A stretch of 64,000 nucleotides of DNA from Candidatus Minusculum obligatum (GTDB taxonomy: Bacteria; Patescibacteriota; Minisyncoccia; Phycocordibacterales; Phycocordibacteraceae). Positions 14,843 to 57,491 of this stretch are shown here, one piece after another (the stretch's first letter is position 1; the number at the start of each line of letters is the position of its first letter). The position numbers were made by a program, and so were the translations under genes. The notes beneath the pieces are model-generated. The model had not been told where the DNA came from, did no database searches, and worked only from the letters and a program-made list of their open reading frames with translations. The stretch covers positions 90,002 to 154,001 of the forward strand of contig DCYT01000001.1 of assembly GCA_002331145.1 (NCBI GenBank), written 5' to 3'.

Positions 14843-14900
14843 TTTGCCCTCCCTAGGCAATACCACAACAGACTTTATTATACCATTCCTACGCTTACTG

Positions 14901-16001
14901 TCAAGAGTGTAGAAATACCATTACGTCCCCATCTTGCACTATATATTCCTTCCCTTCAGTACGAACTTTCCCTAATTCTCGTGCTTTTCCATAGCTCCCT
15001 GCTTCTAGAAGCTCTTCTGTTCCAATAACCTCAGCTCGAATAAACTTATCTTTAAAATCATTATGGATTGCAGCTCCTGCAATAGGTGCAGAACTCCCCT
15101 TTTTAATAGTCCACGCACGAGTCTCTGTGTCTCCTGTAGTAAAAAATGTCATGAGCCCCAAGATCTCATAACTCTTTCGAATAAGGTCAACAAGACCATC
15201 TCCCTGAGCTCCTAACTCTTGCCTAAATGAATCTTTGTCTTCATCTGCAACATCATTTAAATCACGCTCTGTCTGCGCATCCATAATTACATACTGCCCT
15301 CCCTGCTCCTTTATATAGTCAAAAGCCTTCTCTGCTCGCCCATCATTTAACTCCTGTAGGTTGTGTCCTCCAGTTTTTGTATTAAGCGCATAAAGCATTG
15401 GCTTGTATGTAAGAAATGCCATCTGCTTTACAAAAGGAGTCTCCTCTTCGGTAAACTCAAGAGCTCGAACAGGTGTACTCTCACGAAGAGCATGAAGAAT
15501 TTTCTTCATTACCTCCTCCTCTGCAACAGCATCCTTATCTCCCCGCTTTACATCTCGCTCCAACTTCTGCAAACGATTATTTACCTGCTCTAGGTCAGAG
15601 AGCATAAGCTCAAGGTTAATAACCTCCATATCTTTAATAGGATCAATGTCTCCTGATACGTGTGTAATATCAGAATCATCAAAGAAACGTACAGTATGCA
15701 AAATTGCATCTACCTCTCGAATATTAGAAAGGAACTTATTTCCAAGACCCTCTCCCTCTGATGCTCCCTTTACAAGCCCTGCAATATCTACAAACTCAAC
15801 AACCGCTGGAATTGTTTTCTCTGAATTTGAAAATTGAGAAAGTTTATCAATGCGAGAATCAGGAACAGGAACAACTCCAACAGAAGGATCAATGGTGCAG
15901 AAAGGATAGTTCTCTACCGCCACGTCATGTTTTGTGAGTGCACAAAAGAGCGTGGATTTTCCCACGTTTGGTAGACCAACGATTCCCATCTTAAGTGACA
16001 T
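14901..16001 (-). CDS. ychF: Ribosome-binding ATPase YchF
   Basis: It has the P-loop motif (MGIVGLPNVGKSTLF) and the C-terminal TGS region. Confidence 0.95.
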   Translation of the reverse strand: MSLKMGIVGLPNVGKSTLFCALTKHDVAVENYPFCTIDPSVGVVPVPDSRIDKLSQFSNSEKTIPAVVEFVDIAGLVKGASEGEGLGNKFLSNIREVDAILHTVRFFDDSDITHVSGDIDPIKDMEVINLELMLSDLEQVNNRLQKLERDVKRGDKDAVAEEEVMKKILHALRESTPVRALEFTEEETPFVKQMAFLTYKPMLYALNTKTGGHNLQELNDGRAEKAFDYIKEQGGQYVIMDAQTERDLNDVADEDKDSFRQELGAQGDGLVDLIRKSYEILGLMTFFTTGDTETRAWTIKKGSSAPIAGAAIHNDFKDKFIRAEVIGTEELLEAGSYGKARELGKVRTEGKEYIVQDGDVMVFLHS

Positions 16002-21335: not shown

Positions 21336-23622
<2,287 letters not shown>

Positions 23623-23625
23623 GGT

Positions 23626-25170
23626 TTATGATCGATCCTTAAATGTCTTCACGAGCTCAGCTAGCTTCTTTGCAGAATCTTCACTGATCTCTTTATCTTT
23701 CTTGATTGCCTCAAGCACCATTACTCCCTCTCGAGCGAGGAAGGTCTTAAATTCTGCCTCAAGCTCTCGAACCTTTGCAGGATCAACATCATTTAGAAGA
23801 TCATCTCCTGCAGCAAATAGAATTGCAGCAATCTCCTCAAACGGCATAGGAGCTCCCTTATCCTGATTCATAAGCTCAGTCATTCTTCGCCCTGAATCAA
23901 TTCGATCCTTTGTATCTTTATCAAGATCTGATGCAAACTGCGCAAATGCCTCAAGCTCTCTAAACTGAGCAAGCTCAAGTCGCACCGTTCCTGACACCTT
24001 CTTAACCGCCTTTGTCTGAGCTGCAGACCCTACTCGAGATACAGACAGTCCTACGTTAATAGCTGGACGCAGTCCCTTGTTAAAGAGATCTGATTCAAGA
24101 TAAATCTGTCCGTCCGTAATTGAAATTACGTTTGTTGGAATGTATGCAGACACATCATTCTCTTGTGTCTCGATAATAGGGAGTGCAGTAAGAGATCCTC
24201 CTCCCTTATCTTTTGAAAGCTTTGCGGCTCGCTCCAAAAGCCTAGAGTGAAGGTAGAAAATATCTCCAGGATAGGCCTCTCGTCCTGGTGGACGCCGAAG
24301 AAGTAGCGAAAGCTGCCGATACGCTACCGCCTGCTTTGAAAGGTCATCATAGATAACAAGTGCATCTTGCCCTCGATCCATAAAGTACTCTCCAATGGCA
24401 GCTCCAGCGTACGGTGCAAGGTATTGAATAGCAGCAGGCTCAGCAGCAGAAGCGGTAACCACAATGGTGTAATCCATTGCTCCCTTTTCCTCAAGCTCAG
24501 CTACGATACGTGCTGTCTTTGATTCCTTCTGTCCAATAGCAACATAAATACAAATTGGTCGATTCTTTGGAGACTCATTCTTCTGATTAAGAATCGTATC
24601 AATAGCGATAGTTGTCTTTCCTGTATACCTATCTCCAATAATAAGCTCACGCTGTCCTCGACCAATTGGAATCATGGCATCAACCGCCTTAATTCCAGTA
24701 TGAAGAGGAACATCAACTGGAGATCGCTCAATCACAGAGTATGCATCGCGCTCAATAGGGACAAATGTTTTTGCTTTTGTCTTTCCTTTTCCATCTACTG
24801 CTTCAGCCAATGGGTTTAGTACTCGTCCGATAAGCTCATCACCCACAGGGAGTGACAGAAGCCTTCCTGTACGACGAACAAGCATTCCTTCGTACACTGT
24901 ATTGCTCTCCCCTAAAATAGCTGCTTTTACACCATCCTCCTCAAGGTTTAGTACAAGACCGTAAGTTAGAGAATCATCTTTTAGCGCAGCCTCAAGAGAC
25001 CTATCGTGCGTCTTATCAAAGAGCACCATCTCCATCATCATGGCATTTTGCAGCCCTTCGATTTCAACAATACCGTCTCCAGTACTCTTGATGTGACCTA
25101 CTTCCTCCTGATGCTTTACCGGGGTAAAGGTATCAATCTCTTTTTGAATTCTTTTAATAATTGCATCCAT
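23626..25170 (-). CDS. atpA: F1 ATP synthase alpha subunit
   Basis: It has the motif [15 protein letters not shown]. Confidence 0.97.
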
Positions 25171-25171
25171 A

Positions 25172-25528
25172 CTACTTTGTGATATTTCGATAAAGCTCCA
25201 TAAGCGACCTCTTGTAACTTGCGTCAGTTAGCACTCCGTCTTTGAAGTGCTGCCATCCACCGACTAAGTTTGGATCGATGGTCGCACCAACTTTTATTCC
25301 GGCTGCTTTGCGTGCAGCAACAACATCTTTCTTTCTTCCAACAATAAGTGTTTCCTTCCCTTTCTCTGCCCCACCTTTCTTTAAAGAAGCAAGGATTCCT
25401 GGCAAAAGTTTCTCGTGCCTTCTAGCTTTTATATACTTTAAAAACTTTGTAAGGACTTTCCCCTGCTCACTTGCAGTTTTCCCTTCTAGGGATTCTCTTA
25501 GAGCTGCTGCATAGGTGCGTGCATTCAT
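25172..25528 (-). CDS. atpH: ATP synthase delta (OSCP) subunit, unusually short at 118 aa
   Basis: It sits between atpF and atpA. Its N- and C-terminal ends resemble OSCP, but the middle is missing. Confidence 0.6.
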
Positions 25529-25529
25529 A

Positions 25530-25973
25530 TTATTTCTTCTCTAACACCTTCTCTGCTGCAAGGATAGAAAGTTTTGCAATTTCTTTCTCTGCATCCTTTC
25601 GAGCCTTCTTCTCTGTCTCTTTGGCTCGAAGCTCTGCATCTTTTGCAACTTTAGCCGCACGCTCCTCTGCATCTTTAAGAATCTTTCCTCGCTCGTCAGA
25701 TCCCTGCTGCTTTGCAGCAGTTACAACATCGTGCGCCTCAGTCTCGGCAGACTTTAGAATCTCTCCCTTCTTCTCTTCTACATCTTTTCGTATCTCCTCT
25801 GCAGCCTGCGCATCCTTAACACCCTTTGCAATCATCTCCTCTCGTCCACGCAACATAGAAAGCACTGGTTTATACAAGAAAAACCATAGTGCTCCTACAA
25901 GAATTCCAAAATTGATCACCTGCAAAATAAGCAGCCGCCAATCAATTCCAAATGCGTGAAAGAGTTCAGACAT
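25530..25973 (-). CDS. atpF: Fo ATP synthase b subunit
   Basis: It has one N-terminal TM segment followed by a long charged helix. Confidence 0.8.
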   Translation of the reverse strand: MSELFHAFGIDWRLLILQVINFGILVGALWFFLYKPVLSMLRGREEMIAKGVKDAQAAEEIRKDVEEKKGEILKSAETEAHDVVTAAKQQGSDERGKILKDAEERAAKVAKDAELRAKETEKKARKDAEKEIAKLSILAAEKVLEKK

Positions 25974-25976
25974 GAT

Positions 25977-26213
<237 letters not shown>

Positions 26214-26288
26214 CTAAACCTTAATAATTGATGGCCAATTTAAAGCCACGCATCGAATCACCACAATGATCCGATGTGTGGTCTCAAA

Positions 26289-27038
26289 TTAATGAGGCTC
26301 GGCTACTGCAATCTTTATAAAGAAGAGTGTCAGTAAGGCAAAAATTGCTGCCTGTATGAATCCCACAAAAAGCTCAAAGGCTAGAAGTGGAACAGGTACC
26401 AAAAGTGGCACAAATGAAAACACAACGAGAATCAAAACTTTCCCCGCGAAGATGTTTCCAAAAAGACGGAAAGAGAATGAAATCAGCCGTGCTAGTTCAC
26501 TAAAAAGTTCAATGATACCGACAGCAAATGCTAGCGGCGACTTAAAAGTAACAAATTTTCCTCCATACCTCAAAGCACCGAGGGTGATAATTCCAGCAGT
26601 TTCAATTGCAAGGAGTGCAATAATTGAAAGTGCGAGCGTAACATTGAGATCTGTATTGATTGGATAGAAAAATGGAAGGAAGTGTCCATGGTCTTCTATT
26701 CCAATTGCTCCAATAAATGGCAAAAGTCCAAACCAGTTTGCGGTAAGAACAAAAATAAAGATTGTCATTACAAGTGGGAATACCCACGCAACAAGTTTTT
26801 TATCGTATTCGAGTGTCTCTCGAACAAATGAATATGGAAATTCAATGATTCCCTCTACCGCAGCCTGAAGTTTTCCAGGAACAAGCTTTAAATTCCTTCC
26901 CAAAAAGTACGCACTTACAATAAGTAGCGCACTTACAACAATAGTACTCAAAAGCGTGTTGGTAATCGGCAAACCAAAAAGGTGCGTGAGCACCGTTGGT
27001 TCAAGATGAATCGCAATTTCTTTTGCCATTTCGCGCAT
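26289..27038 (-). CDS. atpB: Fo ATP synthase a subunit
   Basis: It is a multi-TM protein with a conserved Arg-containing penultimate helix. It is first in the operon. Confidence 0.85.
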   Translation of the reverse strand: MREMAKEIAIHLEPTVLTHLFGLPITNTLLSTIVVSALLIVSAYFLGRNLKLVPGKLQAAVEGIIEFPYSFVRETLEYDKKLVAWVFPLVMTIFIFVLTANWFGLLPFIGAIGIEDHGHFLPFFYPINTDLNVTLALSIIALLAIETAGIITLGALRYGGKFVTFKSPLAFAVGIIELFSELARLISFSFRLFGNIFAGKVLILVVFSFVPLLVPVPLLAFELFVGFIQAAIFALLTLFFIKIAVAEPH

Positions 27039-27074
27039 CAGTTTAACATGTACAGAACGTATGAGAAGTGGACA

Positions 27075-27112
27075 AAAAGCGAAAAATCCCCGGTAATACC
27101 GAGGATTTTTCT
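27075..27112 (-). terminator. Rho-independent terminator separating the DUF378 gene from the atp operon
   Basis: The stem aaaatcc...ggatttt has a 13-nt loop. A T-run follows on the minus strand. Confidence 0.6.
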
Positions 27113-27129
27113 AAAAGCAAAATTAGATG

Positions 27130-27324
27130 CTATTTCTTCATGAACATGTTGAAAAGCATGTACAGTGCTGAAATTCCTACGAGAATATATACAATATTCG
27201 CGATATTTCCTGCACCAAAAATCATTTCTACCAAGTTAAGGTTTGCAGCACCGATAAGTCCCCAGTTGATACCTCCAACGAAAACTAAAATGTATGCAAT
27301 CCAATCGAGAGCGTTCATTCGCAT
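27130..27324 (-). CDS. DUF378 family small membrane protein
   Basis: It has the signature WIAYILVFVGGINWGLIGAANLNLVEMIFG. The start is set at the internal Met. Confidence 0.65.
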   Translation of the reverse strand: MRMNALDWIAYILVFVGGINWGLIGAANLNLVEMIFGAGNIANIVYILVGISALYMLFNMFMKK

Positions 27325-27417
27325 ATGCGTTATGTGAATTTCCGGTAATACGACCACATATATTTTATCACGCAAGCACTAGAGCCTCATTTTGTCTAGA
27401 AAAGGAGGTGTATAACC

Positions 27418-27885
27418 CTAATTTAGGAAAAATAGACTTGCATTGAGGTATGTTGCAAACAACACCCAAAGTAAATACGGAATGAGAATAACTCCAGCAA
27501 TCTTTGAGATTTTGTAAAATCGCCTAATTATCTCTAGAAGCATCAAGTCTAGGATGATAATTACACCAAGTGCTAATCCTATATTCTGTTCTCCAAAGAA
27601 AATGATAGACCACGAAGCATTAACAAAGAGATGTGTGAAGAATAATGCCAATGCCCTTCTATAATTTTCACCCTTACTCTTCCAGACAAGATATGAGCTA
27701 ATACCCATAAGTGTGTAGAGAGTTGTCCAAACAGGACCAAATACCCAACTTGGAGGATTAAGTGCTGGTTTTATAAGAAAATCATACCAAGAATCAATAT
27801 TTGGCACTGTTGCGAAACTTCCTAAAATTCCAGCAGCTTGAGCTACAAGAATAAAGAAAAGAAGAATTACTGCTTGTTTAATCAT
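27418..27885 (-). CDS. TspO/MBR family tryptophan-rich sensory protein
   Basis: It has five TM segments and W-rich motifs (PPSWVFGPVWTTLYTLMG). Confidence 0.8.
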   Translation of the reverse strand: MIKQAVILLFFILVAQAAGILGSFATVPNIDSWYDFLIKPALNPPSWVFGPVWTTLYTLMGISSYLVWKSKGENYRRALALFFTHLFVNASWSIIFFGEQNIGLALGVIIILDLMLLEIIRRFYKISKIAGVILIPYLLWVLFATYLNASLFFLN

Positions 27886-27888
27886 GCA

Positions 27889-28464
27889 TTAAGTATACTT
27901 CTGTACTTCTTTCCTACGGAAACAATCAACAGAATGATCATTTACCATTCCTGATGCCTGCATATGTGCATAGACAGTAGTTGGTCCTAAGAATTTAAAT
28001 CCTCGCTTTTTTAAATCTTTTGCAAAAACGTCTGATTCTTTTGTTGTTGCAGAATAATCTTCTATCTTCTTTATATTGTTTTGTATTGGCTTCCCCCCTA
28101 CAAAACTCCACATGTACGTATCAAAGGTCCCGAATTCCTCCCGAATTTCCAAAAACTTCTTTGCATTGTTTATTGCAGACTCAATCTTTGCTCTATTTCG
28201 AATAATAGAGGAGTCTTGCAGCATTCGCTCCACATCTTTTTCTGTTAGCTTTGCAACTTTCTTTGGATCAAAGTTTTTAAAGTTTTTTCTATACCCATCT
28301 CTCTTTTTGAGTATTGTCTCCCAAGAAAGTCCTGCTTGTGCACTCTCAAGAGTTAGGAATTCAAAAATCTTATGATCATCATGCAATGGTACTCCCCATT
28401 CAGTATCATGGTATTCAACATAGAAATCTTTTTCGAGTGGTACCCAAGGACAACGCTTTTTCAT
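27889..28464 (-). CDS. tag: DNA-3-methyladenine glycosylase I
   Basis: The match CPWVPLEKDFYVEYHDTEWGVP...FEFLTLESAQAGLSWETIL starts at MKKRCPW, where the start is set. Confidence 0.85.
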   Translation of the reverse strand: MKKRCPWVPLEKDFYVEYHDTEWGVPLHDDHKIFEFLTLESAQAGLSWETILKKRDGYRKNFKNFDPKKVAKLTEKDVERMLQDSSIIRNRAKIESAINNAKKFLEIREEFGTFDTYMWSFVGGKPIQNNIKKIEDYSATTKESDVFAKDLKKRGFKFLGPTTVYAHMQASGMVNDHSVDCFRRKEVQKYT

Positions 28465-28521
28465 AAAGCATATAGTATCAAATATTAGAAAACACACCCC
28501 TGAAGGTGTGTTTTCCGCTTT

Positions 28522-28551
28522 TGTGGAGCAGTTAGGAGCTGGTTGGAATCT
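28522..28551. repeat. Repeat R1, carrying the Ra arm only (tgtggagcagttaggagctggttggaatct)
   Basis: It is identical to the right halves of R2 and R3. Confidence 0.7.
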
Positions 28552-28555
28552 ATAT

Positions 28556-28584
28556 TTGACAGTATCTAATATATACGTTATAAT
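28556..28584 (+). promoter_or_regulatory. Consensus sigma70-type promoter (TTGACA, 17-bp spacer, TATAAT) driving the small peptide gene
   Basis: The -35 element is at 28556-28561 and the -10 element at 28579-28584. An AAGGAGGTG Shine-Dalgarno sequence at 28606-28614 lies 9 nt before the ATG at 28624. Confidence 0.6.
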
Positions 28585-28623
28585 CAATAAGAATTTTAGA
28601 AGGGAAAGGAGGTGTAAATACTT

Positions 28624-28791
28624 ATGCCCTTCAATAAAGATTCTTCGGGAGAATTTCGTCATTCTTCCAGCGGGGTCATTTTGGCCATAACAGCCATTCT
28701 TGCCCTCATAATTATACTTGGCATCGCAAACCTTCCTCTTTTCTTAGAGGAATGGCGAGCTGAGAACTACGCATATTCCGAACAAAAATAA
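28624..28791 (+). CDS. A 55-aa single-TM peptide, MPFNKDSSGEFRHSSSGVILAITAILALIIILGIANLPLFLEEWRAENYAYSEQK. It is a candidate type I toxin-like or small membrane protein.
   Basis: It is not in the ORF track because it is shorter than 60 aa. It has a perfect promoter, a strong SD and its own hairpin terminator. Confidence 0.5.
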   Translation: MPFNKDSSGEFRHSSSGVILAITAILALIIILGIANLPLFLEEWRAENYAYSEQK

Positions 28792-28829
28792 CAACAAGGA
28801 CATGCGTGCCAAGAAACTGTTCACAACTT

Positions 28830-28864
28830 GCCACCCGCACATAATAGTGGGTGGCATATTTTAT
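28830..28864 (+). terminator. Rho-independent terminator for the small peptide gene
   Basis: The stem gccaccc...gggtggc is followed by atattttataat. Confidence 0.6.
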
Positions 28865-28878
28865 AATGTGCTCCGTTT

Positions 28879-28931
28879 GTTTTTTGGATAAATCCAAACT
28901 TTGTGGAGCAGTTAGGAGCTGGTTGGAATCT
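28879..28931. repeat. Repeat R2 (La+Ra): tttttggataaatccaaactttgtggagcagttaggagctggttggaatct
   Basis: It is near-identical to R3. It contains the dyad TTGGATAAATCCAA. Confidence 0.75.
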
Positions 28932-28932
28932 T

Positions 28933-29355
28933 TTAGCTCTGAGGAGAAATAAAATGATTATAAACTGGATACACTTGCGCAGAAATTACTTGTGAAATCA
29001 TACTTAGTTGAGCTGGTTTAATTTGCTCTCTCATTTCAAGGATTTTTTCATATGAAAAGAACTCACAGGCTGCAGTCTCTACACCATCTGAAGTTGGCTC
29101 CCCACTTTCAATGTGAGCATCAAATAAAATTACGATTCCTTGAGTCTTTTTTTGAGAAAAAATGCCAAGTAATTGCCCAAGTTTAATACCACAACCTGTC
29201 TCTTCTTTAACTTCCCGAACTAACGCATCAGGCATAAGTTCTTGGAAATCGGGACCTCCTCCTGGCAAAGTCCAGAGCTGCTGACGAGTTACATCCTTAA
29301 CGAGAAGAATTTTATCCTCTTTGTTCTTTATAAAAGCAAATACTCCTACATCCAT
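28933..29355 (-). CDS. NUDIX hydrolase
   Basis: It has the Nudix box (GGGPDFQELMPDALVREVKEETG). It is precisely bracketed by R2 and R3. Confidence 0.85.
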   Translation of the reverse strand: MDVGVFAFIKNKEDKILLVKDVTRQQLWTLPGGGPDFQELMPDALVREVKEETGCGIKLGQLLGIFSQKKTQGIVILFDAHIESGEPTSDGVETAACEFFSYEKILEMREQIKPAQLSMISQVISAQVYPVYNHFISPQS

Positions 29356-29373
29356 TAATGTAAGAGTATCAGC

Positions 29374-29426
29374 TTTTTTTGGATTTATCCAAACTTTGTG
29401 GAGCGGTTAGGAGCTGGTTGGAATCT
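29374..29426. repeat. Repeat R3 (La+Ra)
   Basis: The sequence tttttttggatttatccaaactttgtggagcggttaggagctggttggaatct differs from R2 at two positions. Confidence 0.75.
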
Positions 29427-30366
29427 ACAGGAACATAAAGAGACCTCCTTTTGTACCATCTAAATTAATTTCATAAATAGCAAACTCTTCTTTGGGCCCT
29501 GGCATACCTGGAGAACCGCTTGGCATACCTGCCATGCCAATACCTTTTATGGGAGGTCGCTCCGCAAGGAGCTTCTGCACAGCTTCTTCAGGAACATGAC
29601 CTTCGACCACATACCCTCCAATCGTCATGGTGTGACAGCTTCCAAGTTCACTTGGGACGCCAAACTGCTCTTTTATAGCAATAAGCTCATCTGTATTTTC
29701 TGCAACCACATCGTACCCTTTACCTTGGAGGTGTGCGACATACCCTGAACAACATCCACATGTGGGTGATTTATATACAGTTGCAATAACATCTTTTGCC
29801 TCAATCATCGCAGATTCACTAGAGCTAATCTCCCGATAAATGTCTCGCATTAAATTAATCTCTTCTGATTGATTTACGATAATTGCGTTAGCAAGAGTCA
29901 TTATCTCCTCGTACTTTGCAACAGGAAGCACAGTTTGTGCCATCATAATTGCACCCATGTGATGCATGGTCATGTCATGAAGAAATATACGGTCAAGAGG
30001 TTCTCCTGAAAGAGATTCAAGCTCTCGCATCATTGGCATATATACACCCTGATCCACATACTCCTCCCCATACCACGTCTGGTAATTTTCCTTCATTTGC
30101 GCAACCTCTTTTGTTTGTGTTGAGATAATGTTTTTTGAGAGAGAAACCATTCGCTCCACAGTCCCTCCTCGCTCAAGAACCTCTTGTGCTGTAGAAATAG
30201 CCTCTTCATGATGAGGAATCATATGCTCCAAAAACTCACGTTCATTTGAGAAGTTTGGAACCATCGCATGCTGTACCTGCTGTTTTTCAGTAAAAGAATT
30301 ATCCAGAAATAAAACTGCTACGGCGACTACAACTCCTCCTAAAAGAATCAATCCTGCTTTTTTCAT
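29425..30366 (-). CDS. Secreted or anchored DUF305 (ferritin-like, MIPHH...HHMGAI) fused to a DUF411/CopG-like Cys-rich metal-binding domain. It is a copper-homeostasis-type protein.
   Basis: The N-terminal domain has HxxH/HH motifs (MIPHHEEAI; MTMHHMGAIMMAQ). The C-terminal domain has TCGCCSGY...GSCHT...GMPSGSPGMPG. Confidence 0.7.
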   Translation of the reverse strand: MKKAGLILLGGVVVAVAVLFLDNSFTEKQQVQHAMVPNFSNEREFLEHMIPHHEEAISTAQEVLERGGTVERMVSLSKNIISTQTKEVAQMKENYQTWYGEEYVDQGVYMPMMRELESLSGEPLDRIFLHDMTMHHMGAIMMAQTVLPVAKYEEIMTLANAIIVNQSEEINLMRDIYREISSSESAMIEAKDVIATVYKSPTCGCCSGYVAHLQGKGYDVVAENTDELIAIKEQFGVPSELGSCHTMTIGGYVVEGHVPEEAVQKLLAERPPIKGIGMAGMPSGSPGMPGPKEEFAIYEINLDGTKGGLFMFL

Positions 30367-30426
30367 AGTTTCCCAATTCTACACTAATGAACAAAAGACG
30401 TTAAATTCATTTGCTACACTGTATGC

Positions 30427-30879
30427 ATGAATAATTATAGAAATCTTCTTTTTTCAATTGTGACAAGCTTTTTGGTGATGTACGCGCTTACCTATATTGC
30501 CGTATATACGTGGGGCGATATCTCTATCTTTAGCACCCGAAGCTTATACATGGCAATGATCATGATTGCTCCAATGATCATGATCATGATCATTTTTATG
30601 GGAAACATGTATAAAAACAAACAACTAAATATGAAGCTCTACGCATTTAGTGTTGGTTTATTTTTCATTTCTCTTTTTTTTATACGTGGACAAGTATTCG
30701 TAAATGACACACAATTCTTGCGTTCAATGATTCCCCACCACTCAAGTGCAATTACTATGTGCCGAGAAAGCTCTCTTTCTGACCCAGAGGTTATTGAACT
30801 TTGTGAGAGTATTATTACCGCTCAGCAACAAGAAATAGATCAGATGAATTCTATTTTGAAACGGCTAAAAGATAATTAA
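30427..30879 (+). CDS. Membrane protein with a DUF305-type domain
   Basis: It has three N-terminal TM helices, then MIPHHSSAITMCRE...ELCESIITAQQQEIDQM. It is divergent from the preceding gene. Confidence 0.6.
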   Translation: MNNYRNLLFSIVTSFLVMYALTYIAVYTWGDISIFSTRSLYMAMIMIAPMIMIMIIFMGNMYKNKQLNMKLYAFSVGLFFISLFFIRGQVFVNDTQFLRSMIPHHSSAITMCRESSLSDPEVIELCESIITAQQQEIDQMNSILKRLKDN

Positions 30880-30920
30880 AGTTTTAGCCAAAAAGAAAAC
30901 CTAGCAGTTGCTGGAATTTC

Positions 30921-30976
30921 TTTTTTTGGATAAATCCAAACTTTGTGGGGTTGATCGGAAGTTAGGTCGAACTTTT
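30921..30976. repeat. Repeat R4 (La+Rb hybrid): tttttttggataaatccaaactttgtgg | ggttgatcggaagttaggtcgaactttt
   Basis: Its left half equals R2/R3 and its right half equals R5. The switch point is at GTGG. Confidence 0.75.
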
Positions 30977-31066
30977 CTGAGCTTTGTGAGGAAGCTTCAG
31001 AGAGCTGACGAAAAGGCGCGGAAACCTCTCAAGGGCCTAGACGTCGACGATTGCTAATCGATCCAA

Positions 31067-32707
31067 CTAATGCGTCTGGGCAGCTTGAACCTTTCGCACT
31101 CTCTCCCAAAACGTCTCGTATGCCTCCCCAGCCCACTCGCTACGATACTCATCCGCCTGTGCAATCCAGTTTTGAGCTTCGGTACGAATTGGTTGCTCCA
31201 ACGCTAAAAGCTCCAACTGGGCTTGCAAACCTATCGAGGTCGTTTTCATCCATTGAAACGGAGAGTCTGTAAGTGTGCGATACATGACTGCTTTGGCACA
31301 CTCATCCATCACCGCAATGAACTCCTCAACTGAGGGATTCTTCTGAGCAGCAAGTAGCCGCACTTCGGCGATGTTTTTCCTCACCATCGCCCACTCGTAT
31401 GGAGCGGTCTTCTCAGTCCACCAGCGTTCAGTTTTTTCGTATTTTTCTTTGGCGGCATCAGCGTGCGAAAGCTCGCCGGAACGCCCCATCATCTCTTTGT
31501 GATAGTTTCCGTAATTATTGTAGACCTTCGGACAGAGCATGAAGCTCCGATAGTCCGACCCGTCCAGCTCGATCGAAAGCGCGTCATCAAGCGCACGCTT
31601 TGCCCCTTCGAGAAACTCGGGATCGCTTGTGAGTTGATATTTTCGAATGTGCGTTATTGCTGCATTGTTATAAGCATCCGCGGCCACCAACGCATCATCC
31701 CCAGCAAGCTCGGTTGTTAACTGGAACAAATCGCTCGCCCGATTAAGCTGAGTGATATCTCCACGCTCTCCCAAACGTCGATATGCTAGCCCCAGCGCGT
31801 TGGCCATTTCATGATTGAAATTTGAAGAGCTTTCAAATTTTTCCAGAACGCCGATCGCCTGCGATAGTCCATCTGTATCCGATGATCGCGTGCTGATTTC
31901 CTGGACGATATTGGCCATCGCCGCGACGCTGTTAGGATCTAGTTCAAAATCACCTTCGGAGATCCGGTCGACAACATCGGTAAGTCGCTCGATACGGTTC
32001 TCGATGCCGTAGCAAATCAGTCCTGATTGGAGGTACTTGTAGACTGCCTCATCTCGCTCGACAGCGGTGAGCTCTTCTGAATGATCGAGCACATAATCCA
32101 AATCACGATGCGCCCTCAGAAATTCCTGTCTACTGAAGTGTTGGTTCGCGGTATCAAATTTGGTTTGGATTAGATTCATATGCTCATTGGAACGGTTCCC
32201 GACGCTAGGCGCGTCACCGGTCAATGCCGGCAAAGTTTTTTCCAGCAGCTCAAGCTTTGCGAGCTCGTCTACGAGAGCAAGGTTCTGCTGAGCCATCGCT
32301 GAAAAAATGTCGCTGAAAATTGATTCTGGCAATCCTAGCCGATCGGCTGCCTGAATACGTGGAGACACCACCAACTCTGGAAATATCACGTTTAAATTTG
32401 CGATGTTATAGGTTTTGTTCTTCTCAACAAAGTCACCACCAGCCACCTTGGATTCGTCGTGGACAACTCCATCCTTTGAAACATTTCCCAGGATACCGGC
32501 AGAGACATCTCCCCCGGCTGCCACACCATGCTTGCTAGCGCGTTGAGTTGGCTGGTTGGACTTGTAAATCAAGTATGCAGCTAGGGCCGCGGCAACCAAA
32601 AAGAGGCCACCGACCACAACCAAACCTCGGATGCCGAAACTCCTGAAGAATTCTAACACATCGCTTTGCTGTAGAAATTCTAGCATGTAGCTCTCCGCAG
32701 ACTTCAC
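31067..32707 (-). CDS. Membrane-anchored hypothetical protein (GC-rich cargo, helical repeat-like)
   Basis: The 546-aa ORF has an N-terminal TM segment (LVVVGGLFLVAAALAAYLIY). Its composition is clearly more GC-rich than the host. Confidence 0.55.
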   Translation of the reverse strand: MKSAESYMLEFLQQSDVLEFFRSFGIRGLVVVGGLFLVAAALAAYLIYKSNQPTQRASKHGVAAGGDVSAGILGNVSKDGVVHDESKVAGGDFVEKNKTYNIANLNVIFPELVVSPRIQAADRLGLPESIFSDIFSAMAQQNLALVDELAKLELLEKTLPALTGDAPSVGNRSNEHMNLIQTKFDTANQHFSRQEFLRAHRDLDYVLDHSEELTAVERDEAVYKYLQSGLICYGIENRIERLTDVVDRISEGDFELDPNSVAAMANIVQEISTRSSDTDGLSQAIGVLEKFESSSNFNHEMANALGLAYRRLGERGDITQLNRASDLFQLTTELAGDDALVAADAYNNAAITHIRKYQLTSDPEFLEGAKRALDDALSIELDGSDYRSFMLCPKVYNNYGNYHKEMMGRSGELSHADAAKEKYEKTERWWTEKTAPYEWAMVRKNIAEVRLLAAQKNPSVEEFIAVMDECAKAVMYRTLTDSPFQWMKTTSIGLQAQLELLALEQPIRTEAQNWIAQADEYRSEWAGEAYETFWERVRKVQAAQTH

Positions 32708-32765
32708 TCAGAAGTAGCACGGGCATTTATCAAACGCACTTTGTGCGAACCTACGAGGGAAGAAC

Positions 32766-32935
32766 TGGGGATAAAGAACTAGCGCCTGAGAGATTATCTC
32801 AAGCGCTTGCTCGAACGATGTTTCGATCACGACTCTGCTGTGCCGTGAAATCTACTGGCCTGGTCACACGGCTCGTGTGCAAATTTCCAAGCCTTGACGT
32901 TAGTGGGGTTGATCGGAAGTTAGGTCGAACTTTTT
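32766..32935. repeat. Long direct-repeat copy 1 plus R5 (Lb+Rb). It is a diverged duplicate (~80%) of the ~140 bp immediately 3' of tRNA-Ala. The identical 30-nt core is ctcgtgtgcaaatttccaagccttgacgtt.
   Basis: It aligns with 33909..34049: tggggataaaga...ttcgatc...ggtcacacgNctcgtgtgcaaatttccaagccttgacgtt(a/g)gtgg. It is followed by the Rb arm shared with R4. Confidence 0.7.
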
Positions 32936-33000: not shown

Positions 33001-33843
33001 CTAAGCCGAAGCTTCGTCCGGCTCGAACCCTTCAAATTCAATGATGATGAAGATCTTCTTTCCTAGATCAACGCGATCGATCTCAACCTGAAACGAATGT
33101 TCGGTGAGGTTTTGAATGTAGCCGGCATGATCGACATCAGATGGCTCAAATATCTTGTCCGCATCCCAGAACTGGGTCTCGCCACCGTCCTCTTTGACCC
33201 GAATTCGTTCGATTTTACGATCCGCGCTGACTTCAACCCGAAGGTTTCTGCACGGCGTTAGAGACGCGACCGTGATTGATTTCTGGTATGGCCCCTCACC
33301 TTTAGGAAACAAGTAGCTGTACGAATGAGTATAGACATCCCCTGCATAGATCGGCTTGGGAGGTTTCCAGTACACATTGTAAGCGTCGGGACGAGGTTGT
33401 TCCGTCTTGTCGATGGTTGCGTCAGATGTCTTGTAGCGCATGTCATCAAAAGACAATCCGACAGAACCGAACAGCGTATCAACCAGCTCCTCAGACGTCG
33501 CATCGCGATGGAATAACATGGTCTTGTCACAGCCTACGTTCCGCGATCCGTCCTCGTTGAAATGCCAACGCTGAACAACGTCATTGTAAACAAATGACGC
33601 TTTTTCGTGTCGGTTGTATGTGGTGCGAACGTCAAACATAAACCATGCTAAGAAGATAAGTAAAATCAACCATATAATCGTGGATCCCGCAAGGAACGCG
33701 AGGCTCGGCCCTCCGGTCTCGGACAAAAAGAGAATAGCTTGAACAAGTGCGATAGCTGTGAGAAAGAGCGCCACAATTGCAGCTGCGGTTTTTCTTGGCC
33801 GCAGTGCGCGCTGTACGAGAATGCTCTCAATGCGCCTCCACAT
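33001..33843 (-). CDS. Membrane hypothetical protein (GC-rich cargo)
   Basis: The 280-aa ORF has two N-terminal TM helices. It lies between the two long direct-repeat copies. Confidence 0.5.
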   Translation of the reverse strand: MWRRIESILVQRALRPRKTAAAIVALFLTAIALVQAILFLSETGGPSLAFLAGSTIIWLILLIFLAWFMFDVRTTYNRHEKASFVYNDVVQRWHFNEDGSRNVGCDKTMLFHRDATSEELVDTLFGSVGLSFDDMRYKTSDATIDKTEQPRPDAYNVYWKPPKPIYAGDVYTHSYSYLFPKGEGPYQKSITVASLTPCRNLRVEVSADRKIERIRVKEDGGETQFWDADKIFEPSDVDHAGYIQNLTEHSFQVEIDRVDLGKKIFIIIEFEGFEPDEASA

Positions 33844-33908
33844 CCTACGCGACCTTTCTCAGACCCACACGGCTTCAACGATAAACTGTTCACCTCATTC
33901 TTCGCAAT

Positions 33909-34049
33909 GTGGGGATAAAGACAATCGCCCAAGGTTTCACCCTGGGCGATTGTCGCTTCGATCTATCGATCGCGACTCTACTGAGCCGCGATTTTCACCA
34001 GCTTGGTCACACGTCTCGTGTGCAAATTTCCAAGCCTTGACGTTGGTGG
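33909..34049. repeat. Long direct-repeat copy 2 (the native tRNA-Ala 3' flank). It includes a hairpin (caatcgcccaaggtttcaccctgggcgattg) that is the likely tRNA terminator.
   Basis: See copy 1. It abuts or overlaps the tRNA 3' end. Confidence 0.7.
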
Positions 34050-34118
34050 ACTCGAGAGGAATCGAACCCCCGACCTCCTCAGTGCAAGTGAGGCGCTCTA
34101 GCCAACTGAGCTACGAGC
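34043..34118 (-). tRNA. tRNA-Ala (anticodon UGC) with an encoded CCA
   Basis: The minus-strand read is GGGCTCGTAGCTCAGTTGGCTAGAGCGCCTCACTTGCACTGAGGAGGTCGGGGGTTCGATTCCTCTCGAGTCCACCA. It has a G3:U70 pair, the anticodon loop CTTGCAC, and a T-loop TTCGATT. The T-stem contains two G-U pairs. Confidence 0.9.
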
Positions 34119-34141
34119 CCGTAAATGAGAGAATACAAGAC

Positions 34142-57183: not shown

Positions 57184-57242
57184 AATATTTCTCCCCGTGC
57201 TAAAGATCCTATATTTTTATTATAACATTTATATTATTAATG

Positions 57243-57491
57243 TCAATTTATAAGTGAAAGTTTTTCTGCTCTCGTTAGTTTCTTTAGCTCTATCTCTCTA
57301 CGCATTGCATCCCCTTTATTATCAAAAGCTTCTTTGTAGACAAGCTCTACAGGTCTTCGTGCTTTTGTGTACTTTGCGCCAATCTTCTCAGAATTGTGCT
57401 CTAAAACTCTACGCTCTACATCTATTGTATAGCCAGTATATAAAGTGTTATCTGCACACTTAAGTATGTAGACAGTATGGTTCATTACCAA
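57243..57491 (-). CDS. GIY-YIG nuclease superfamily small protein
   Basis: It has the motif YILKCADNTLYTGYTIDVERRVLEHN. Confidence 0.75.
   Translation of the reverse strand: MVMNHTVYILKCADNTLYTGYTIDVERRVLEHNSEKIGAKYTKARRPVELVYKEAFDNKGDAMRREIELKKLTRAEKLSLIN

What the first reader, a model, noticed from the sequence alone, without database searches (positions are those of the whole stretch)
28556..28864. Consensus-promoter, strong-SD, terminator-bounded 55-aa transmembrane peptide: candidate type I toxin-like module inside the array
Seen in sequence: there is a perfect TTGACA-17-TATAAT promoter and an AAGGAGGTG Shine-Dalgarno sequence 9 nt from the ATG. The 55-codon ORF has one predicted TM helix (VILAITAILALIIILGIANLPLFL) and a GC-stem/T-run terminator. 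The ORF is absent from the supplied track because it is shorter than 60 aa. Established knowledge: short, highly expressed single-TM peptides flanked this way are typical of type I toxins (Hok/Fst/TisB-like), which are held in check by antisense RNA. Inference: the opposite strand (28700..28900) could encode the antisense partner. On an island, this would be an addiction module.
Basis: partly seen in the sequence, partly recalled or inferred. Interest (0 to 1): 0.55.

Follow-up and report, generated by a model that had tools for sequence, protein, structure and literature searches.

The report
Orphan membrane peptide gene cassette
A tiny, fully equipped gene for a 55-residue membrane-spanning peptide with no relatives in any database is the only cargo of a 380-bp unit in a strain-variable array of cassettes beside a tRNA gene in a Patescibacteria genome. 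It has the look of a type I toxin, but nothing yet shows toxicity or an antisense partner.

Summary
These are a perfect TTGACA-17-TATAAT promoter, AAGGAGGTG 9 nt before the ATG, a 55-codon ORF with one strong transmembrane helix, and a GC-stem/T-run terminator. The signals stand out in this genome. Perfect promoters occur 3 times against 0.1 expected, and almost no other gene has a Shine-Dalgarno sequence.

The unit lies exactly between two copies of a 32-nt box. Five such boxes, all on one strand, form an array next to tRNA-Ala. A sister strain (Patescibacteria UBA3533, 95% identical flanks) has entirely different cassettes at this locus and lacks the peptide.

The peptide is an absolute orphan. 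Two exhaustive protein searches returned only itself, and no Pfam, NCBIfam, PADLOC, PHROG or PDB match was found.

It meets the generic type I toxin criteria of size, a transmembrane helix, a polar/aromatic C-terminus and a highly structured mRNA. It fails the criteria of homology, paralogy and long flanking intergenic regions. The only antisense promoter candidate scores at chance level, and toxicity cannot be tested here.

Verdict: a real, self-contained small membrane-peptide gene carried on a mobile mini-cassette. The type I-like toxin reading is the most specific one (about 0.35-0.4) but is unproven. Interest is moderate. The surrounding array is more unusual than the peptide.

The parts
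28488..28515 (.). Bidirectional terminator-like hairpin between the Tag start (28470) and the left box. On the minus strand it is the first terminator-like site downstream of the cassette.
   Evidence: 13-pair stem on the minus strand at 28516-28487 and 11-pair stem on the plus strand. Absent from the sister strain.
28520..28551 (+). Left 32-nt 'A box' TTTGTGGAGCAGTTAGGAGCTGGTTGGAATCT, the left cassette boundary.
   Evidence: 3 copies with 1 mismatch or fewer, 0 expected. Also.
28556..28584 (+). Sigma-70-type promoter TTGACA-17-TATAAT (12/12). It starts 4 nt after the box.
   Evidence: 3 perfect sites in the window against 0.10 expected.
28599..28632 (+). Predicted 5' stem GAAGGG (28599-28604) / CCCUUC (28627-28632) that encloses the SD and the AUG.
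   Evidence: MFE and centroid structures. Prediction only; no covariation test is possible.
28606..28614 (+). Shine-Dalgarno AAGGAGGTG, 9 nt upstream of the ATG.
   Evidence: an outlier; other genes in the window lack an SD.
28624..28791 (+). 55-codon ORF. The peptide has a polar N-terminus (residues 1-17), a transmembrane helix (18-41) and an acidic/aromatic C-terminus (42-55).
   Evidence: Orphan status.
28785..28812 (-). Candidate antisense promoter TTGGCA-16-(TGT)TATTTT. The inferred start near 28778 would give an RNA complementary to the ORF.
   Evidence: 9/12 match at chance-level frequency. Weak candidate only.
28829..28866 (+). Intrinsic terminator: a 10-bp stem (7 G-C), an 8-nt loop and a TATTTTATAA tail.
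28880..28899 (.). Conserved palindromic hairpin TTTTTTGGATAAATCCAAAC that precedes most boxes.
28900..28931 (+). Right 32-nt A box, identical to the left one. It ends 2 nt before the stop codon of the convergent Nudix gene (28933-29355, minus strand).

Best explanation
The locus is a real, autonomous mini-gene. Its own consensus promoter drives a structured mRNA of about 275 nt (about 28591-28866). Its unusually strong ribosome-binding site directs synthesis of a 55-residue bitopic membrane peptide. That peptide is the sole cargo of a 380-bp cassette bounded by two identical 32-nt boxes, in a strain-variable tandem array anchored at tRNA-Ala in a Patescibacteria chromosome.

The mechanism I consider most likely is that the peptide inserts into the cytoplasmic membrane as a single helix and acts as a type I-toxin/holin-like membrane perturbant. 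Its synthesis would be restrained at the RNA level in two ways. One is the 5' stem around the SD and AUG. The other is antisense transcription across the cassette, either from the weak internal minus-strand promoter or by read-through from the convergent Nudix cassette. This would make the cassette costly to lose.

Shown: the expression signals, the ORF, the transmembrane helix, the orphan status, the cassette boundaries and the strain variability.

Inferred: that the peptide is made, its membrane insertion and topology, RNA-level control, toxicity and addiction.
For: - Perfect promoter, SD and terminator at the stated coordinates, in a genome where such signals are rare.
- The ORF frame scores best of the six frames, in the range of the other foreign array genes.
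- Strong transmembrane segment and a single-helix model.
- Generic type I toxin criteria met: 70 aa or fewer, a transmembrane helix, and the polar/aromatic C-terminal tail EEWRAENYAYSEQK (PMC2887945; PMC5961336).
- The mRNA length and peptide size are close to the C. difficile type I modules, which have mRNAs of about 300 nt and toxins of 50-53 aa (PMC5961336).
- The mRNA folds far better than shuffles (z -5.3; -3.5 without the terminator), with a stem enclosing the SD and AUG.
- No terminator-like site lies on the minus strand between 29339 and 28516, so Nudix read-through would be antisense to the whole gene and end at the 28516-28487 hairpin.
- The cassette is inverted relative to its neighbours and carries its own promoter. 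In chromosomal integrons, promoter-containing cassettes of this kind are the toxin-antitoxin cassettes that stabilise arrays (10.1101/2022.08.03.502626).
- The cassette is absent from the 95%-identical sister strain, so it is recently gained or lost accessory DNA.
Against: - No homologue of any kind exists, so purifying selection, family membership and conservation of an antisense RNA cannot be assessed.
- The peptide matches no known toxin family.
- There are no paralogues or tandem copies.
- The flanking distances of 153 and 141 nt are below the Fozo thresholds, leaving no room for a separate sRNA gene.
- The antisense promoter candidate is at chance level, and no antisense terminator lies within the cassette.
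- In the predicted fold the SD sits mostly in a loop and is only weakly paired.
- A consensus promoter plus an optimal SD predicts high constitutive synthesis, which would be dangerous for a toxin without a strong antitoxin.
- The C-terminus is acidic (net -2), not lysine-rich as in the C. difficile toxins (PMC5961336).
- The 17-residue polar N-terminus is long for this class.
- Most small membrane proteins are not toxins.
Confidence: 0.38

Rival explanations
1. A benign small membrane protein. The peptide is made constitutively and acts without toxicity, for example as a modulator of a membrane transporter or sensor, an immunity or entry-exclusion factor, or an envelope component useful to an episymbiotic cell. 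No antitoxin would exist.
For: - The same evidence that the gene is real.
- Unrestrained expression signals fit a harmless product.
- No convincing antisense promoter or terminator and no trans-complementary sequence in the window.
- Small single-pass proteins have many non-toxic roles (review PMC12648545).
- The acidic C-terminus and long polar N-terminus are atypical of the lysine-rich toxins (PMC5961336).
Against: - No partner gene lies in the cassette.
- Neighbouring cassettes (Nudix, DUF305-DUF411) are unrelated acquisitions and differ in the sister strain, so a conserved protein partner is not evident.
- The extreme mRNA structure and the inverted, self-promoted arrangement are not explained by this reading.
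Confidence: 0.32
2. Decaying or neutral relic. The cassette would be the remnant of a larger integrated element, and the ORF would be a young or fortuitous orphan with no selected function.
For: - Absolute orphan status.
- Codon score below 98% of housekeeping windows.
- The array looks like an accretion of reduced elements without a recombinase nearby.
- The cassette is dispensable, since it is absent from the sister strain.
Against: A perfect promoter, a perfect SD at ideal spacing, an intact ORF and a strong terminator occurring together are improbable in decaying DNA. The ORF frame is clearly the best of the six.
Confidence: 0.17
3. A structured non-coding or dual-function RNA gene. The functional product would be the roughly 275-nt RNA, and the ORF would be incidental or secondary. 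The sister arrays carry apparently non-coding cassettes with their own promoters in the same way.
For: - Fold z-scores of -5.3 and -3.5.
- The UBA3533 arrays contain a plus-strand cassette with TTGACA-17-TAGATT, a GC-rich stretch of about 165 nt with no ORF and a terminator (L005 437-745). They also contain GC-rich cassettes without convincing ORFs.
Against: - A 9-nt SD at ideal distance from an ATG opens a 55-codon frame that encodes a textbook transmembrane helix.
- No Rfam family matches, even at E<=1.
- No similarity to the sister-strain RNA-like cassettes.
- GC content is 43%, typical of coding DNA here and not GC-rich like those cassettes.
Confidence: 0.1

Closest known systems
Chromosomal type I toxin-antitoxin modules of Firmicutes-type organisms (C. 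difficile CD2517.1/RCd8, CD2907.1/RCd9; B. subtilis txpA/RatA, bsrG/SR4)
   Same: - The product is a small single-transmembrane peptide of 50-59 aa.
- The mRNA is about 300 nt and highly structured, with its own promoter and terminator.
- The location is in mobile or prophage-like DNA next to repeat arrays (PMC5961336).
- The C-terminal tail is polar.
   Different: - No sequence homology.
- No demonstrated convergent antisense RNA; only a chance-level promoter candidate.
- The C-terminus is acidic rather than lysine-rich.
- The polar N-terminus is 17 residues long.
- The RBS is only weakly paired in the predicted fold.
- The whole cassette is only 328 nt between the boxes.
hok/sok, fst/RNAII and other plasmid addiction type I systems
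   Same: The concept is the same: a membrane-active peptide of about 50 aa on mobile DNA whose loss would be penalised. The N-polar / transmembrane / C-tail layout is similar to Hok (own knowledge).
   Different: - No match to any Pfam family, even at E<=10.
- No long 5' UTR, leader ORF (mok-like) or 5'-3' pairing element identified.
- No strong antisense promoter.
Promoter-containing toxin-antitoxin cassettes of sedentary chromosomal integrons (Vibrio cholerae)
   Same: It is a self-promoted cassette inside an array of otherwise unrelated cassettes bounded by conserved recombination-type repeats. The proposed role is to stabilise the array (10.1101/2022.08.03.502626).
   Different: - Those are type II (protein-protein) systems bounded by attC sites and served by an IntI integrase.
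- Here there is no attC-like structure and no integrase in the window, and many neighbouring cassettes appear to have their own promoters.
Tandem tDNA-anchored genomic islands / cis-mobilizable elements (e.g. Dehalococcoides ssrA-GIs)
   Same: This comparison concerns the surrounding array.
[quoted passage not shown]
- The array is anchored at a tDNA and is hypervariable between strains.
- Some units lack an integrase (PMC3146451; PMC5704250; PMC4383910).
- A relative of one array gene lies beside a large serine recombinase.
   Different: - The units here are far smaller, 0.38-2 kb against about 10-30 kb.
- The boxes are not copies of the adjacent tRNA-Ala; only about 9 nt match.
- The boxes come in three types (A, B, C) and contain internal 10-11-nt duplications.
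- No recombinase was found in the 64-kb window.

Membership tests
Type I toxin-antitoxin system | Small protein, generally 70 aa or fewer (PMC2887945) | tested here: met
   55 aa.
Type I toxin-antitoxin system | Predicted transmembrane region | tested here: met
   Kyte-Doolittle 19-residue window of 2.98 at residues 17-35. Single helix over residues 15-53 in the AlphaFold2 model.
Type I toxin-antitoxin system | C-terminal cluster of polar, charged or bulky/aromatic residues | tested here: met
   The tail is EEWRAENYAYSEQK (W, Y, Y and 6 charged residues), net charge -2. It is acidic, unlike the lysine-rich C. difficile toxins (PMC5961336).
Type I toxin-antitoxin system | Long flanking intergenic regions (>400 nt upstream, >250 nt downstream; PMC2887945) | tested here: not met
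   153 nt to the Tag start (28470) and 141 nt to the Nudix stop (28933).
Type I toxin-antitoxin system | Cis- or trans-encoded antisense RNA antitoxin that pairs with the toxin mRNA | tested here: inconclusive
   - One minus-strand promoter-like site at 28812-28785, a 9/12 match at chance frequency.
- No internal minus-strand terminator.
- Read-through from Nudix is possible.
- No trans-complementary stretch longer than 12 nt in the window.
- Transcription itself is not testable here.
Type I toxin-antitoxin system | Growth arrest or death on overexpression, rescued by the RNA | not testable with these tools
   Requires an experiment.
Type I toxin-antitoxin system | Toxin mRNA structure that sequesters the ribosome-binding site | tested here: inconclusive
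   A 6-bp stem (28599-28604 / 28627-28632) encloses the SD and AUG, and the whole-mRNA z-score is -5.3. The SD itself is only weakly paired, and no homologues exist for covariation analysis.
Known toxin families (Hok/Gef, Fst/Ldr, TisB, Ibs, TxpA/BsrG etc.) | Sequence homology to family profiles | tested here: not met
   No Pfam hit even at E<=10. No NCBIfam, PADLOC, PHROG or PDB hit. Only a self-hit among 1.84 billion representatives.
Type I toxin-antitoxin system | Frequent tandem or dispersed paralogous copies | tested here: not met
   No paralogue in the window or in any genome. This feature is common but not obligatory.
Integron cassette array | attC sites (R''-L''...L'-R' imperfect inverted repeats of 50 nt or more) at the 3' end of each cassette | tested here: not met
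   The boxes are non-palindromic 32-mers with an internal direct 10-nt periodicity. Only a 16-nt hairpin is adjacent. The folds are not significant for most copies, and the sequences were inspected.
Integron cassette array | IntI-type tyrosine integrase and attI next to the array | tested here: not met
   Genes flanking the array are the ATP synthase operon, DUF378, TspO and Tag on one side. On the other side are tRNA-Ala, Ddl, a CARDB protein, UvrABC, a histidine kinase and TGT. ORFs elsewhere in the window were not all scanned.
tDNA-anchored tandem islands / cis-mobilizable elements | Array anchored at a tRNA/tmRNA gene, with all repeats in the orientation of the gene's 3' end | tested here: met
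   tRNA-Ala lies at 34044-34120 on the minus strand. All five boxes are on the plus strand within 5.6 kb of it. The same 85-nt flank precedes the tRNA, a B box and a C box.
tDNA-anchored tandem islands / cis-mobilizable elements | Direct repeats are copies of the 3' part of the target tDNA | tested here: inconclusive
   - Only about 9 nt (TTTGTGGAC against TTGGTGGAC) match tRNA-Ala.
- Read in reverse complement, the boxes look like T-loop / T-stem / acceptor blocks with internal duplications.
- A box profile finds the tRNA 3' end plus flank as its next-best hit at E 0.011, but that profile includes flank-bearing copies.
tDNA-anchored tandem islands / cis-mobilizable elements | Strain-to-strain variability of content between conserved flanks | tested here: met
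   L003/L002 (UBA3533) match window 23511-28465 at 95% and 30923-31592 at 90%. Between those blocks they share only the boxes.
tDNA-anchored tandem islands / cis-mobilizable elements | Cognate integrase (tyrosine or serine recombinase) | tested here: not met
   None next to the array. A 39%-identical homologue of the 546-aa array gene lies beside a 507-aa serine recombinase in L007, but no boxes are present there.

The most novel reading that the evidence does not exclude
The peptide cassette is a type I-like addiction module with no sequence relatives. To my knowledge it would be the first such module in the Patescibacteria/CPR. It would stabilise a previously undescribed, integron-like accretion array. 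In that array, mini-cassettes of 0.4-2 kb (protein genes, small RNAs and this peptide) would be exchanged at tRNA-3'-end-like 32-nt boxes by a recombinase encoded elsewhere in the genome.
Probability: 0.12. Interest if true: 0.72.

Novelty: new member of a known kind. Interest (0 to 1): 0.36.

Why it matters
If the peptide is a type I-like toxin, it would extend RNA-controlled membrane toxins to the ultra-small, episymbiotic Patescibacteria. It would also give a genetic handle, a stabilising cassette, on a hypervariable locus in organisms that are almost intractable.

Independently of toxicity, the locus shows that this lineage keeps a compact hot spot next to tRNA-Ala where very small, self-expressed cassettes turn over between strains that are 95% identical. 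That is a mode of gene flux not documented for these reduced genomes.

If the peptide is simply a benign orphan, the finding is ordinary: one more unannotated small membrane protein missed by a 60-aa ORF cut-off.

Tried and rejected
1. Homology searches for the peptide all returned nothing but the query itself. They covered the word-indexed search of 5.8 billion clusters, exhaustive HMMER over 1.84 billion representatives, Pfam at E<=10, NCBIfam, PADLOC, PHROGs and PDB. They also covered viral contigs, plasmids by tblastn and phages by blastn.
2. Looking up contigs that encode the peptide, Tag, TspO or Nudix to find alternative array states gave only the same genome, or contigs broken at the boxes.
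3. Boxes as true tRNA genes or known RNAs: rejected. ARAGORN and Rfam find only tRNA-Ala.
4. Boxes as CRISPR repeats: rejected. The spacing is 380-1958 nt and the units contain genes.
5. Boxes as integron attC sites: rejected. There is no R''/L''-L'/R' symmetry and the length is too short.
6. The 103-nt duplication (32816-32918 / 33959-34061) as a DGR template/variable repeat pair: rejected. The differences are not adenine-specific. It is a shared leader and flank of two paralogously arranged genes.
7. Boxes as promoters (TTGGAA as a -35 element): a -10-like element follows at the right distance in only some copies, so the pattern is not consistent.
8. Type IV / Flp pilin-like prepeptide (G17 followed by a hydrophobic stretch): rejected. 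There is no E5 or EY motif and no Pfam hit.
9. Signal peptide with cleavage after GIA: not excluded, but the 24-residue hydrophobic span and the 17-residue n-region argue for a membrane anchor.
10. L004 (a metagenome hit to the box pattern) is a chance match inside an FAD-dependent oxidoreductase-like ORF.
11. The 280-aa array protein is not related to the 278-aa protein of L007.

Full report
**1. The observation**

- TTGACA (28556-28561), a 17-nt spacer and TATAAT (28579-28584) form a 12/12 sigma-70 consensus.
- AAGGAGGTG lies at 28606-28614, 9 nt before the ATG at 28624.
- The ORF 28624..28791 encodes 55 residues.
- A hairpin of 10 pairs (7 G-C) at 28829-28856 is followed by TATTTTATAA.

These features are not background noise.
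- Perfect TTGACA-N16-18-TATAAT sites occur three times in the 64-kb window against 0.10 expected from shuffles.
- Among 31 other ORF starts in the window, none has more than a 5-nt Shine-Dalgarno-like match, so a 9-nt SD is a clear outlier in this genome.

The hydrophobic segment is a strong transmembrane candidate. The best 19-residue Kyte-Doolittle window scores 2.98. AlphaFold2, run on the single sequence, models one continuous helix over residues 15-53 with pLDDT above 90 across the core.

The ORF frame has the best codon-usage score of the six frames and exceeds every off-frame window of real genes. It scores below 98% of in-frame housekeeping windows, in the same range as the two foreign-looking genes of the array.

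The 257-aa minus-strand ORF that overlaps the 5' end of the peptide gene (27889..28662) is an artefactual extension of Tag. The glycosylase domain starts at residue 14 of the 193-aa version. Synteny with the sister strain ends at the ATG at 28470.

**2. Context: a strain-variable cassette array at tRNA-Ala**

The peptide unit lies exactly between two identical 32-nt boxes, TTTGTGGAGCAGTTAGGAGCTGGTTGGAATCT, at 28520-28551 and 28900-28931. A third copy with one mismatch lies at 29395-29426. A second box type (B) lies at 30942 and 32900.

A profile search finds five units in the window, all on the plus strand between 28.5 and 32.9 kb, and none elsewhere. Most are preceded by the palindrome TTTTTTGGAT-NN-ATCCAAAC.

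The units delimit the following cassettes:
- the peptide (380 nt start to start);
- a Nudix gene (495 nt);
- a DUF305-DUF411 gene plus a DUF305 gene (1547 nt);
- a 546-aa gene of unknown function (1958 nt);
- a 280-aa gene that abuts tRNA-Ala at 34044-34120.

All protein genes but one run on the minus strand, so the peptide cassette is inverted relative to them.

The same boxes occur in only one other organism in the public collections, the Patescibacteria MAG UBA3533 and metagenome contigs identical to it. Its contig L003 matches the window at 95% identity from the ATP synthase operon to the Tag start codon (window 23511-28465). It matches again at 90% from the hairpin and B box into the 546-aa gene (30923-31592). 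The roughly 3 kb in between shares nothing but boxes. The array is therefore a turnover hot spot, and the peptide cassette is strain-specific accessory DNA.

The window is inferred to come from a Patescibacteria genome of at least about 0.6 Mb. The peptide is on record on a 602,686-nt contig.

**3. What the boxes may be (inference)**

An 85-nt sequence that precedes tRNA-Ala's 3' end also precedes a B box in the window and a third box type (C) in UBA3533. The boxes therefore occupy the position of a tRNA 3' end.

Their first 9 nt (TTTGTGGAC/G) resemble the tRNA-Ala end (TTGGTGGAC). Read in reverse complement, the A box parses as T-loop end / T-stem / acceptor strand / discriminator, with an internal 10-nt duplication.

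This is the anatomy of att-type direct repeats left by elements that integrate into tRNA or tmRNA genes (PMC4383910). The closest described analogue is the set of tandem ssrA islands of Dehalococcoides. [quoted passage not shown]

In keeping with this, the only distant homologue of the 546-aa array gene (39% identity) lies in an ICE- or plasmid-like region. That region also encodes a 507-aa serine recombinase, an rve integrase and a TrwB-type coupling protein.

No recombinase lies next to the array in the window. The boxes are not copies of the adjacent tRNA, and the units are an order of magnitude smaller than known islands. The mechanism therefore remains open. Integron attC sites, CRISPR repeats and known RNA families were tested and rejected.

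**4. What the peptide is**

It is an absolute orphan.
- The word-indexed search of 5.8 billion clusters and the exhaustive HMMER scan of 1.84 billion representatives returned only the query.
- There is no hit in Pfam (even at E<=10), NCBIfam, PADLOC, PHROGs, PDB, viral contigs, plasmids or phages.
- It has no paralogue and no complementary sequence elsewhere in the window.

It also means that no test of selection or covariation is possible.

**5. The type I toxin hypothesis**

In favour:
- Its size and the predicted 275-nt mRNA resemble the C. difficile modules found beside CRISPR arrays, which have toxins of 50-53 aa, mRNAs of about 300 nt and structured mRNAs with masked ribosome-binding sites (PMC5961336).
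- The predicted mRNA folds much better than dinucleotide shuffles, at -85.6 against -60.2 +/- 4.8 kcal/mol (z -5.3). Without the terminator, z is -3.5. A GAAGGG/CCCUUC stem encloses the SD and AUG.
- On the minus strand there is no terminator-like site between 29339 and 28516. Transcripts of the convergent Nudix cassette would therefore read antisense through the whole peptide gene and stop at the strong hairpin at 28516-28487.
- Self-promoted cassettes in chromosomal integron arrays are typically toxin-antitoxin modules that penalise cassette loss (10.1101/2022.08.03.502626).

Against:
- There is no family homology and there are no paralogues.
- The flanking distances of 153 and 141 nt are far below the Fozo thresholds (PMC2887945).
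- The only internal antisense promoter candidate, TTGGCA-16-TGT-TATTTT at 28812-28785, matches 9/12, and sites of that quality are no more frequent here than in shuffles (6 against 6.5).
- No antisense terminator lies inside the cassette.
- The SD is only weakly paired in the predicted fold.
- The C-terminus is acidic rather than basic.
- A consensus promoter combined with an optimal SD, in a genome that otherwise hardly uses SDs, predicts very high synthesis. That is risky for a toxin without a strong antitoxin.

**6. Verdict**

I put about 0.75 on the peptide being genuinely made. Given its mobile context, I put about 0.38 on a type I-like, RNA-restrained membrane toxin. The rivals are a benign small membrane protein (about 0.32), a relic (about 0.17) and a primarily non-coding RNA (about 0.10).

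As a kind of thing it is a new, family-less member of a known class, namely small single-pass membrane peptides and candidate type I toxins. The more unusual object is the array that carries it.

Noticed in passing
window 28499-32932 (units at 28499-28552, 28880-28931, 29374-29427, 30922-30974, 32872-32932); L003 4980-8035; L005 379-3561: This is a tandem array of mini-cassettes of 0.38-2 kb bounded by 32-nt boxes of three types (A, B, C), mostly preceded by the palindrome TTTTTTGGAT-NN-ATCCAAAC. It is anchored at tRNA-Ala and fully different between two strains with 95%-identical flanks. The boxes look like tRNA/tmRNA 3'-end (mid-T-loop to acceptor) att repeats with internal 10-11-nt duplications. 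No recombinase lies nearby. The boxes were found only in this lineage (window genome and UBA3533).
   Followed up: partly
window-wide; e.g. starts at 28470, 29355, 30366, 35065: Almost no gene in the window has a Shine-Dalgarno sequence; the best match is 5 nt or fewer in 31 ORFs. Several cassette genes start within about 25-30 nt of the hairpin or box, which suggests leaderless or SD-independent initiation in this organism. The peptide gene's perfect SD is therefore foreign-looking.
   Followed up: partly
window 32740-32815 and 33895-33958; L007 9770-9815: A conserved leader element, a GC-rich hairpin followed by (T)TTATCCCCA, lies upstream of the 546-aa and 280-aa genes. It also lies upstream of the 39%-identical homologue in a distant ICE-like contig. 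It may be an attenuator or other cis-regulatory RNA. Together with an 85-nt flank it explains the 103-nt duplication 32816-32918 / 33959-34061.
   Followed up: partly
L003 5000-5340, 6130-6440, 6480-6696; L005 437-745: The sister-strain arrays carry GC-rich cassettes without convincing ORFs, each with its own promoter and terminator. Examples are TTGACA-17-TATACT on the minus strand at L003 ~6690 and TTGACA-17-TAGATT at L005 ~506-534. These are candidate novel small RNAs with no Rfam match at E<=0.1.
   Followed up: partly
L001 2547-2659 (+): A LOOT RNA (Rfam RF03000, 65.6 bits) lies about 2.9 kb from the second UBA3533 array. Between them is a 615-aa ORF that I judged, from reading its sequence only (no domain search), to look like an ATPase of the OLD/ABC type. 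This would hint at a defence-island neighbourhood.
   Followed up: no
window 31067-32707 (-) and 33001-33843 (-): Two array genes have about 50% GC against about 42% for the genome and have no Pfam, NCBIfam, PADLOC or PHROG family. The 546-aa protein has only three homologues in 5.8 billion clusters, one of them in an ICE/plasmid-like context with a serine recombinase, an rve integrase and TrwB.
   Followed up: partly
window 29425-30366 (-) and 30427-30879 (+): One cassette holds a DUF305-DUF411 fusion and a divergent DUF305 gene. I read these as metal (copper)-related from my own knowledge of the domains. The stop codon of the fusion gene lies inside the A box.
   Followed up: no
window 28744-28857 (-): A 37-codon antisense ORF (MPPTIMCGWQVVNSFLARMSLLLFLFGICVVLSSPFL) with a hydrophobic C-terminal half starts inside the terminator hairpin and overlaps the 3' end of the peptide ORF. 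GGAG lies 13 nt upstream. Its codon score is poor and only a sub-threshold DUF6728 hit was found (E 0.23). It is probably spurious.
   Followed up: partly
window 14877-14904 (-) and 57219-57246 (-): These are the only other two perfect TTGACA-N16-TATAAT promoters in the window. What they drive was not examined.
   Followed up: no
hairpins at window 28884, 29379, 30926; L003 6432, 6701, 7309, 7989; L005 753, 1312, 3516: The central dinucleotide of the palindrome occurs as AA, TT, AC or GT, that is, two alleles each in both orientations relative to the box. This pattern is reminiscent of crossover sites of serine recombinases, which cut at a central 2-bp overlap (own knowledge; a lead only).
   Followed up: no
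L002 ~707-992: A run of N in the UBA3533 MAG contig sits between two B boxes. The identical metagenome contig L003 has a single B box there and no gap, so the N-run with the duplicated box is probably a scaffolding artefact.
   Followed up: yes
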